From the human T2T-CHM13v2.0 reference genome, Homo sapiens: a DNA stretch of 64,000 nucleotides. Location of the stretch: assembly GCF_009914755.1 (NCBI RefSeq), contig NC_060926.1. One strand, 5' to 3'. Below are positions 43,056-57,720 of the stretch, piece after piece. The translations under genes were made by a program, and so were the position numbers. The notes beneath the pieces are model-generated. The model had not been told where the DNA came from and did not search any database. It was given only the letters and a program-made list of their open reading frames with translations. Within the stretch, counting starts at the first letter, position 1. Every line of letters starts with the position of its first letter.

Positions 43056-43114
<59 letters not shown>
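43056..43114 (+). repeat. Compound microsatellite (TA)17(GA)12
   Basis: Read directly from the sequence. Confidence 0.97.
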
Positions 43115-43932
43115 TAAGTACATAACTTTCATACATTCTTATGAGGATTCCATGACTTCTCAAACATTAAGAAACTATTGGAAAAAGCAGAGCTCTACTA
43201 ACAGGAGACATGTCGATTTATCTTACATAAAAATGACCCGTACAACCCAGGAAAGCTTTGCAAACAGCCAAAATGTAAAACAAATTAAATGTTGTGTTTA
43301 TCCCTTCAGAATAGTGCAGCACAACAACTCCAGTCATACAGTTTTTATTTACATGAATATTTTAGAAATCCAGCTATTTGTCATTAGACACTCTCTCTTT
43401 ATAATTTGAAAAATTTCAAGAGCCATGGGAACTAACCATAGGTTATATTATGTTGTATATTACTGGCAAGTACTCAATAAAGAGCTGGCAAGAGACAGTA
43501 AATGAAAAATAAATATGTGGCTCAATCTGGTCAAGGGAAAATAACACAGATAACAAGGAGGGATTAGGTCAAGCCCATATTGTGGGTTGTAAAGCACCTG
43601 ATTTCATGTAATTCAACTTATCAATATTCATGAGCACTTATGGTATGCAAAACACTGTGTTTCTGGTGCGAAAAAAAAACTAAACTTGAAACTTAGTAAT
43701 GTTATAATTTTTCTTGTTTTAACCCAAGAATAATTTGTCAAATCAATGAGGAAGTTATGATTTGGGCTTTGTTGGTTTTTCACCAATAAGAGGATGATAG
43801 CAAGCAAGAACCACAGTGTGGTGGATATACATGATGTTGAGTTAACTAAGCTGGAAGGGTATTTCCCTCTATTCTTTGCCTGCGTACTTCTGGGTTAATG
43901 TAAGGTGCAAGAGACACAGTGCATAAGATGTG

Positions 43933-44001
43933 CACTAACCCTAACCCTAACCCTAACCCTAACCCTAACCCTAACCCTAACCCTAACCCTAACCCTAACC
44001 C
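43933..44001 (-). repeat. Interstitial telomeric sequence: CA(CTAACC)11C, i.e. (TTAGGG)n on the minus strand
   Basis: Eleven perfect vertebrate telomere hexamers at 43935-44000, flanked by a 41-bp direct repeat (43892-43932 and 44002-44042, one mismatch). Confidence 0.99.
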
Positions 44002-44110
44002 GGGTTAATGTGAGGTGCAAGAGACACAGTGCATAAGATGTGGTAGGTGGAAGTGAAGTAGAAAGCATATTCTTTTATGCTGGGAAGGTCACTTGAGGGC
44101 ACTGCTCTGT

Positions 44111-56713: not shown

Positions 56714-57720
56714 ATATAAATAAATAATATAAATATTAATTTATATTATTTATATAAATATTATATTTATATTATTTATATAAATATTATATTTATATTA
56801 TTTATATAAATATTATATTTATATTATTTATATAAATATTATATTTATATTATTTATATAAATATTATATTTATATTATTTATATAAATATTATATTTAT
56901 ATTATTTATATAAATATTATATTTATATTATTTATATAAATATTATATTTATATTATTTATATAAATATTATATTTATATTATTTATATAAATATTATAT
57001 TTATATTATTTATATAAATATTATATTTATATTATTTATATAAATATTATATTTATATTATTTATATAAATATTATATTTATATTATTTATATAAATATT
57101 ATATTTATATTATTTATATAAATATTATATTTATATTATTTATATAAATATTATATTTATATTATTTATATAAATATTATATTTATATTATTTATATAAA
57201 TATTATATTTATATTATTTATATAAATATTATATTTATATTATTTATATAAATATTATATTTATATTATTTATATAAATATTATATTTATATTATTTATA
57301 TAAATATTTATTTATATTATTTATATAAATATTATATTTATATTATTTATATAAATATTTATTTATATTATTTATATAAATATTATATTTATATTATTTA
57401 TATAAATATTTATTTATATTATTTATATAAATATTTATTTATATTTATATAAATAATATATAAATAAATATTTTATATGTATATAAATATTATTTATATT
57501 ATTTATTTAAATAAATAATATAAATTAATATAAATATTAATATTATTTATTTTATTATAAATAATATAAATATTATATTTATATTTATGATATTATAAAT
57601 ATTTATAATATGAAATATTTTATAAATATTATATTATTTATATAATTAAATAATATAAATATTTATTTATGCAATATAATATTTATATAATTTATATAAA
57701 TAAACAATATACATATATTT
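56714..57720. repeat. AT-only minisatellite with 26-bp unit TATATAAATATTATATTTATATTATT
   Basis: 21 perfect units at 56751-57296, then alternating 25/26-bp variants to ~57423, then degenerate AT-rich sequence. No G or C from 56714 to 57478. Confidence 0.98.

What the first reader, a model, noticed from the sequence alone, without database searches (positions are those of the whole stretch)
43930..44007. Both junctions of the telomeric insert are palindromes, suggesting fold-back priming created the telomerase seed
Seen: the right junction reads TAACCC|GGGTTA (43996-44007, a perfect 12-bp palindrome). The left junction reads GTG|CAC (43930-43935), where the two non-telomeric bases CA complete the palindrome. 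The target site itself begins with GGGTTA, a telomere hexamer in the opposite orientation to the insert. Established: telomerase extends 3' ends complementary to its CUAACCCUAAC template, and a minus-strand end ...TAACCC-3' is not such a primer. Inference: the broken end may first have copied itself by snap-back or template switching to give GGGTTA-3'. That end could then be extended by telomerase and rejoined using another short inverted microhomology. The junction does not match TERC template-flanking sequence (TTTTGT-CTAACC), so there is no sign of TERC read-through.
Basis: partly seen in the sequence, partly recalled or inferred. Interest (0 to 1): 0.7.

Follow-up and report, generated by a model that had tools for sequence, protein, structure and literature searches.

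The report
Known telomere scar, partly folded junction
This is a catalogued short stretch of telomere repeats inside human chromosome 2, likely left by telomerase at an ancient DNA break; its two palindromic edges are real, but a fold-back step likely helped reseal the break rather than start the repeats.

Summary
Both palindromes are present as described. The locus is the known 2q31 interstitial telomeric sequence (ITS): a 69-nt insert between 41-nt direct repeats. A published table lists it with a 43-bp duplication and 2 nt in register with the repeats, shared with chimpanzee. On the sequence, 43 fits a 2-nt leftward extension. The broken end would then read ...GG-3', which telomerase could extend directly, and the palindrome centre would not be the junction. 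In-cis snap-back did not reproduce the right junction at any of three break positions. The left 6-bp palindrome is ordinary, with only one off-register base. Across 113 other human ITSs, zero-spacer junction palindromes were not enriched (0/113 per side). Opposite-orientation telomeric 5-mers within 15 nt of the repeat-start side were enriched (12/113 vs about 4 expected, p about 0.0002-0.002). That excess was not replicated in 18 weaker loci (0/18), and the side asymmetry is not significant (p 0.15). Verdict: known element, fold-back seeding unlikely here, one modest new lead.

The parts
43892..43932 (+). Left copy of the target-site duplication (41 nt)
   Evidence: family D2
43890..43891 (+). 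2-nt leftward extension of the duplication (CT here, CC in the right copy) that gives the published 43 nt; T inferred to be CpG decay
   Evidence: 43 nt, 2 mismatches; 43 bp, 2 in register; ancestral state inferred, not seen
43892..43897 (+). Opposite-orientation telomeric hexamer GGGTTA in the left copy; present in both copies, so older than the insertion
43918..43936 (+). Looped inverted repeat (6 Watson-Crick pairs plus a G.T pair, 5-nt loop) spanning the left junction; candidate snap-back that copies 43933-43936
   Evidence: predicted hairpin; 4 nt copied, 2-bp primer; 1.0% of 9135 null positions, 2.1% with direct slips
43930..43935 (.).
43933..44001 (-). Telomeric insert, 69 nt with 1 mismatch; exact array 43935-44001 (67 nt); G-rich strand on minus, ending in the GGTTAG register
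   Evidence: published as HSA2q31 69(1) and as 67(0) in hg19 (row 26)
43996..44007 (.). 12-bp perfect palindrome TAACCC|GGGTTA; 6 of its bases (41-nt reading) or 8 (43-nt reading) are ancestral target site
   Evidence: (the 25-nt junction is unique in the genome)
44000..44042 (+). Right copy of the duplication (44002-44042) with the 2 in-register bases at 44000-44001

Best explanation
This is the known 2q31 interstitial telomeric insert between two copies of a 41-43-nt target site, likely made when telomerase directly extended the GG-3' end of a staggered break and a small snap-back hairpin at the other end likely supplied the microhomology for rejoining. Steps: (1) Shown: insert, duplication, register, shared with chimpanzee. 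(2) Inferred: staggered nicks about 43 nt apart left two complementary 3' overhangs. (3) Inferred from the published 43-bp, 2-in-register entry: the minus-strand end read ...TAACCCGG-3' and was extended in register; the left copy later lost this CpG. (4) Inferred: the plus-strand end ...GTG-3' folded onto 43922-43924, copied 4 nt, and its last 2 nt annealed to the ...TTAG-3' end of the new repeats. Fill-in then made the duplication. The 12-bp palindrome is then a by-product of a target site that already held GGGTTA in the opposite orientation. Such a site may have favoured the event without acting as its primer.
For: Anatomy. Published entry for this locus; identity supported and by this being the only interstitial chr2 row. 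43-nt alignment. CpG depletion makes C-to-T decay ordinary here (CpG o/e 0.17; 22 CCGG vs 488 CTGG/CCAG). In-register bases are the rule at ITS break ends: 75-80% in mouse, rat and human and 67% in chimpanzee, and 31/40 in horse. Germline neotelomeres even occur without microhomology in 2 patients (legend S1). In-cis snap-back fails at the right junction. Left hairpin. Short fold-back insertions joined by end-joining are documented in yeast.
Against: I never saw an empty ape or monkey allele; the CC ancestral state rests on two numbers in a table plus a one-base match. The right palindrome is rare by chance (0.10 expected per 131 loci), so calling it a by-product has a cost. Opposite-orientation seeds are in excess on this side of ITSs (12/113 vs 3.7-4.9), which direct extension alone does not predict. 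The left hairpin rests on one diagnostic base, was found post hoc, has a modest folding z-score (-1.1 and -1.8), and is not enriched at this junction type elsewhere (3/113 vs 2.5). The GGTTAG end register occurs at 20/113 arrays, about 1 in 6, so it does not point to telomerase.
Confidence: 0.55

Rival explanations
1. One reading: the broken end folds back on itself, copies TAACCC into GGGTTA-3', and telomerase extends that new end.
For: Perfect 12-bp palindrome, rare by chance. Seed excess on this side. Snap-back-compatible starts copying 5 or more array bases at 2/113 loci vs 0.35 expected, p 0.04 (L031, L038).
Against: No spacer is left for a loop. The model copied 0 insert bases at all three break positions with a 2-bp primer, and 0-2 with a 1-bp primer. 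Zero-spacer palindromes at exact junctions: 0/113 on each side. At 4 or more copied bases the excess is not significant (4/113 vs 1.75, p 0.08). Whether the seeds at L031 and L038 are ancestral is unknown.
Confidence: 0.06
2. Template switch in trans: two copies of the minus-strand end (sister chromatids) anneal through their self-complementary CCGG, each copies the other to give ...GGGTTA-3', they separate, and telomerase continues.
For: By my hand alignment this gives exactly the observed letters with no loop, using the same ancestral CC as the best model (inference). It explains the zero spacer rather than leaving it to chance.
Against: Its product is identical to direct extension, so the extra step is not needed. 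It requires both sisters broken alike, and copying must stop at the seed. Perfect palindromes with arms of 5 or more at this junction type are not in excess (1/131 vs 0.44).
Confidence: 0.12
3. No telomerase at the break: a telomeric DNA fragment or TERRA-derived cDNA was captured by end-joining, and both palindromes are chance or join-promoting structures.
For: Proposed as an alternative by the authors who described these loci. Some ITSs hold inverted telomeric units (L048, L031), which fit captured or rearranged fragments.
Against: In-register bases at break ends favour telomerase in general, and 2 are reported here.
Confidence: 0.17
4. The opposite-orientation seed mattered, but not as a primer: it docked telomere-binding proteins or the TERC template at the break, or let the new G-rich tail fold back and cap the end until rejoining.
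For: The seed excess holds under a conditional null, in the subset selected from the other side (9/71 vs 2.0), and against 9 permuted motifs. It also holds without the loci carrying inverted units (9/109 vs 3.7, p 0.01). The new tail is predicted to pair with the seed.
Against: 0/18 in the replication set (0.66 expected). Right-versus-left difference p 0.15. In arrays with exact runs of 23 nt or more both sides are raised equally (5/47 each). Window and k-mer size were chosen after seeing the data. A 5-6-nt site is short for protein binding (recalled, not tested).
Confidence: 0.25

Closest known systems
Short interstitial telomeric sequences, duplication class (Nergadze et al. 2007, PMC2246262; Santagostino et al. 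2020, PMC7215372)
   Same: This is the listed locus HSA2q31: 69 nt with 1 mismatch, chimpanzee 57 nt with 1 mismatch, 43-bp duplication, 2 nt in register.
   Different: In the parts I read the junction palindromes, the left hairpin and opposite-orientation seeds are not discussed. 'palindrom' has 0 hits in the main text of PMC2246262 and PMC8537989.
Fold-back templated insertions at breaks (yeast, PMC11724301; SD-MMEJ/polymerase-theta snap-back, name recalled)
   Same: Left junction: a resected 3' end pairs with a nearby inverted repeat, copies a few bases and is joined to the other end.
   Different: The yeast case uses a 10-bp imperfect microhomology and a 41-nt loop, and notes that 1-4-bp insertions are hard to assign. 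Here the primer is 2 bp plus a wobble and only one copied base is diagnostic.
TERC-ITS loci (PMC2246262, PMC8537989)
   Same: Opposite-orientation sequence placed upstream of the G-rich repeats (36 of 41 loci), the same side as the seed excess I measured.
   Different: Here the seed lies in the duplicated target site and the flanks match TERC for at most 6 nt, so this is not a TERC-ITS.
Telomere-fusion ITS at 2q13 (PMC7215372 introduction)
   Same: Telomeric units in two orientations meet at a palindromic centre.
   Different: Here a single hexamer of flank faces the array, C-rich then G-rich, and it is duplicated target DNA rather than a second telomere.

Membership tests
Short ITS, duplication class | At least 4 near-exact TTAGGG units at an internal site | tested here: met
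   11.2 exact units
Short ITS, duplication class | Direct repeat of the target site on both sides | tested here: met
   41 nt, 98% identical; 43 nt with 2 mismatches
Short ITS, duplication class | Empty orthologous site in an outgroup | not testable with these tools
   No ape or monkey genomes held; no paralog of the flank; published as mechanism-defined; the 2004 source paper is not held
Telomerase-primed ITS | Break 3' end in register with the repeats | tested here: inconclusive
   2 nt, consistent; 0 nt on the 41-nt reading; ancestral bases not seen
TERC-ITS | Non-template TERC sequence next to the repeats | tested here: not met
   Longest match 6 nt, no read-through at either junction
Snap-back templated junction (right junction) | Primer pairing with a loop of 3 nt or more that copies the first inserted bases | tested here: not met
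   0 bases copied with a 2-bp primer at three break positions
Snap-back templated junction (left junction) | Primer pairing with a loop of 3 nt or more that copies the first inserted bases | tested here: met
   4 bases copied with a 2-bp primer; 1.0-2.1% of null positions; only one base is off telomeric register
Snap-back templated junction (left junction) | Dependence on a repair polymerase such as POLQ | not testable with these tools
   Needs an experiment

The most novel reading that the evidence does not exclude
A minority (about 5-8%) of human ITSs arose where the break end carried a short telomeric motif in the opposite orientation within about 15 nt, and that motif helped the event: by fold-back or in-trans copying into a telomerase primer, by docking telomerase or shelterin, or by capping the new tail. 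This would widen the rule that telomerase needs in-register microhomology, and 2q31 would be the cleanest case because its seed is provably older than the insert.
Probability: 0.3. Interest if true: 0.65.

Novelty: already known. Interest (0 to 1): 0.33.

Why it matters
The element is catalogued and its insertion class published, so the locus itself adds little. Two details could matter. The left junction suggests how a telomerase-extended end gets resealed into the chromosome rather than becoming a new telomere. The excess of opposite-orientation seeds, if it replicates at empty orthologous sites, would give a testable sequence rule for where telomerase acts on breaks, relevant to germline terminal deletions and tumour neotelomeres.

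Tried and rejected
Paralogs of the flank to infer the ancestral base: none. TERC read-through: rejected. GTG|CAC as a meaningful palindrome: rejected, common. Direct-repeat slip for the left junction: copies only 2 bases, and 27% of null positions reach 2 by slip or snap, so uninformative. Enrichment of zero-spacer junction palindromes: none. Selection bias as the cause of the seed excess: tested and not supported. Independent replication: 0/18, underpowered; the reversed-pattern control gave 8 matches against 23, so many of these 15-mers may be chance. My duplication scan missed L048's 15-bp duplication because of its inverted array, so it is not a complete list. Literature searches with no direct precedent: 0 papers; 0 papers; 2 unrelated; 1 review; listings, none on ITS junction palindromes. 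Nergadze 2004 and Simonet 2011 are not held. Figures and .eps supplements holding the ape alignments (Additional files 1 and 7 of PMC2246262) could not be seen and may already show the ancestral bases. Earlier scan findings were not available.

Full report
Observation. The window shows an exact (CTAACC)11.2 array at 43935-44001 between 41-nt direct repeats at 43892-43932 and 44002-44042 with one mismatch. TAACCC|GGGTTA (43996-44007) and GTG|CAC (43930-43935) are present. The 25-nt right junction occurs once in the genome. The flank has no paralog.

Identity. Supplementary Table S1 of PMC7215372 lists one 67-nt, 0-mismatch ITS on chr2 (hg19 182140519-182140585). In this genome ours is the only interstitial chr2 match to four exact units ending in that register. 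Table S8C of PMC2246262 lists HSA2q31 as 69 nt (1 mismatch), chimpanzee 57 nt (1 mismatch), 43-bp duplication, 2 nt in register, citing Nergadze 2004. I matched these entries by length, mismatch count and position order, not by liftover.

Right junction. Extending the repeat 2 nt to the left gives 43 nt with 2 mismatches: CT in the left copy, CC in the right. Extension to the right does not match. I infer that the published 43 and 2 mean an ancestral CC, a minus-strand end ...GG-3' in register, and later CpG decay in the left copy (CpG o/e 0.17 in the window). The palindrome then holds 8 ancestral and 4 inserted bases, and its centre is not the junction. In-register bases are typical of ITS break ends, and 2 patients' neotelomeres lack microhomology altogether. 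A snap-back model with a loop of 3-30 nt copied 0 insert bases with a 2-bp primer at break positions 44002, 44001 and 44000, and 0, 1 and 2 with a 1-bp primer. In-trans annealing of two CCGG ends would give the observed letters, but so does direct extension; the sequence cannot tell them apart.

Left junction. Only A43934 is off telomeric register. Palindromes with arms of 3 or more at this junction type occur at 10/131 loci, with 8.9 expected. Folding shows a better structure: 43919-43924 pairs with 43930-43935 around a 5-nt loop. A 3' end at 43932 primed there copies 4 insert bases. Of 9135 window positions tested, 1.0% do as well, or 2.1% counting direct slips. The last 2 copied bases could anneal to a repeat end ...TTAG-3', giving the observed join (inference). 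Against this: one diagnostic base, post hoc discovery, z-scores of -1.1 and -1.8, and no excess at this junction type elsewhere (3/113 vs 2.5). Neither junction continues into the genome's own TERC.

ITSs with about 17 or more exact bases were listed by pattern. I skipped by eye rows in telomeres, subtelomeric arrays and some duplicate copies, and some rows were not listed (334, 19, 70; later covered the last set). I fetched 120 loci (junctions). Seven were dropped: this locus, 2 paralogs and 4 degenerate arrays, leaving 113. Nulls came from distal flanks of the same loci, not from empty orthologous alleles.

Results. Zero-spacer palindromes with arms of 3 or more at the exact junction: 0/113 on each side (1.7 and 2.4 expected). 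With the centre within 3 nt and arms of 6 or more: 1/131 on the start side (0.10 expected) and 1/131 on the end side (0.17). Opposite-orientation telomeric 5-mers within 15 nt: 12/113 on the side where the G-rich strand starts (3.7 expected, p 0.0002-0.0005) and 6/113 on the other side (4.4-4.7 expected). The start-side excess holds under a null conditioned on my selection pattern (4.1 expected), in the 71 loci that meet the other-side pattern (9 vs 2.0), and against 9 permuted hexamers (lowest p 0.019 among 18 control tests). It also holds with a nearer null (4.9 expected, p 0.002) and without 4 loci carrying inverted units (9/109 vs 3.7, p 0.01).

Results against it. 0/18 in a second set (0.66 expected), pooled 12/131 vs 4.4 (p 0.001). 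The direct side comparison is 9 vs 3 discordant loci, p 0.15. Both sides are equally raised in the 47 longest exact arrays (5 each vs 1.7). Three windows, three k-mer sizes and two sides were tried. For most loci I cannot say whether the seed is ancestral or inserted. It is ancestral here and, by its duplication, at L048.

Mechanism. Most likely: a staggered break, direct telomerase extension of a GG-3' end, snap-back at the other end creating 2-nt microhomology, then fill-in making the duplication (0.55). Rivals are in-trans copying (0.12), in-cis fold-back (0.06) and fragment capture (0.17). A non-priming role of the seed (0.25) is compatible with the main model.

Papers seen. PMC2246262: text parts 1-3 of 7, passages, supplement S6 whole, searched rows of S4 and S5. 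PMC7215372: parts 1-4 of 9, supplement part 1 of 3. PMC8537989: part 2 and passages. PMC6410037, PMC11724301 and bioRxiv 10.1101/2022.10.31.514589: passages only. Others: search listings only. Nergadze 2004 and Simonet 2011 were not available, and figures with ape alignments could not be seen. Searches found no paper on palindromic ITS junctions or opposite-orientation seeds; subscription journals were not searched. The names SD-MMEJ and polymerase-theta snap-back are recalled.

Verdict. A real, known element. The fold-back-seed idea is unlikely at this junction as stated. The left hairpin and the seed excess are modest, testable leads. Interest 0.33.

Noticed in passing
L048 (G000:C9:140361079-140361679): ITS with a G-rich run directly followed by a C-rich run (fusion-like, 17-bp arms) inside a 15-bp duplication; likely the human-specific 9q34 locus. 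Would fit telomerase extending both broken ends.
   Followed up: partly
L031 (G000:C1:10982831-10983431): Array end followed by a 2-nt spacer and a 9-nt inverted telomeric unit; the best fold-back-shaped junction in the set.
   Followed up: partly
L039 (G000:C5:104592253-104592853): 14-bp perfect palindrome across the repeat-start junction, the closest analogue of this finding.
   Followed up: partly
L038 (G000:C3:50800404-50801004): 5 nt of TERC 5'-of-template sequence abut the array, and an opposite-orientation unit nearby matches TERC for 12 nt; a possible TERC read-through ITS, not checked against published human TERC-ITS coordinates.
   Followed up: partly
L035 (G000:C2:222548256-222548856): Array ends in template register and continues for 5 nt as TERC does 3' of its template.
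   Followed up: partly
L043 (G000:C7:274241-274841): Apparent 5-bp duplication that starts with a 4-nt opposite-orientation seed, a miniature of this locus.
   Followed up: no
window 43056-43114: (TA)17(AG)13 microsatellite about 780 nt upstream of the duplication; TA runs can be fragile (recalled), link to the break untested.
   Followed up: no
window 56727-57702: AT-rich minisatellite, 26-nt unit, about 37 copies.
   Followed up: no
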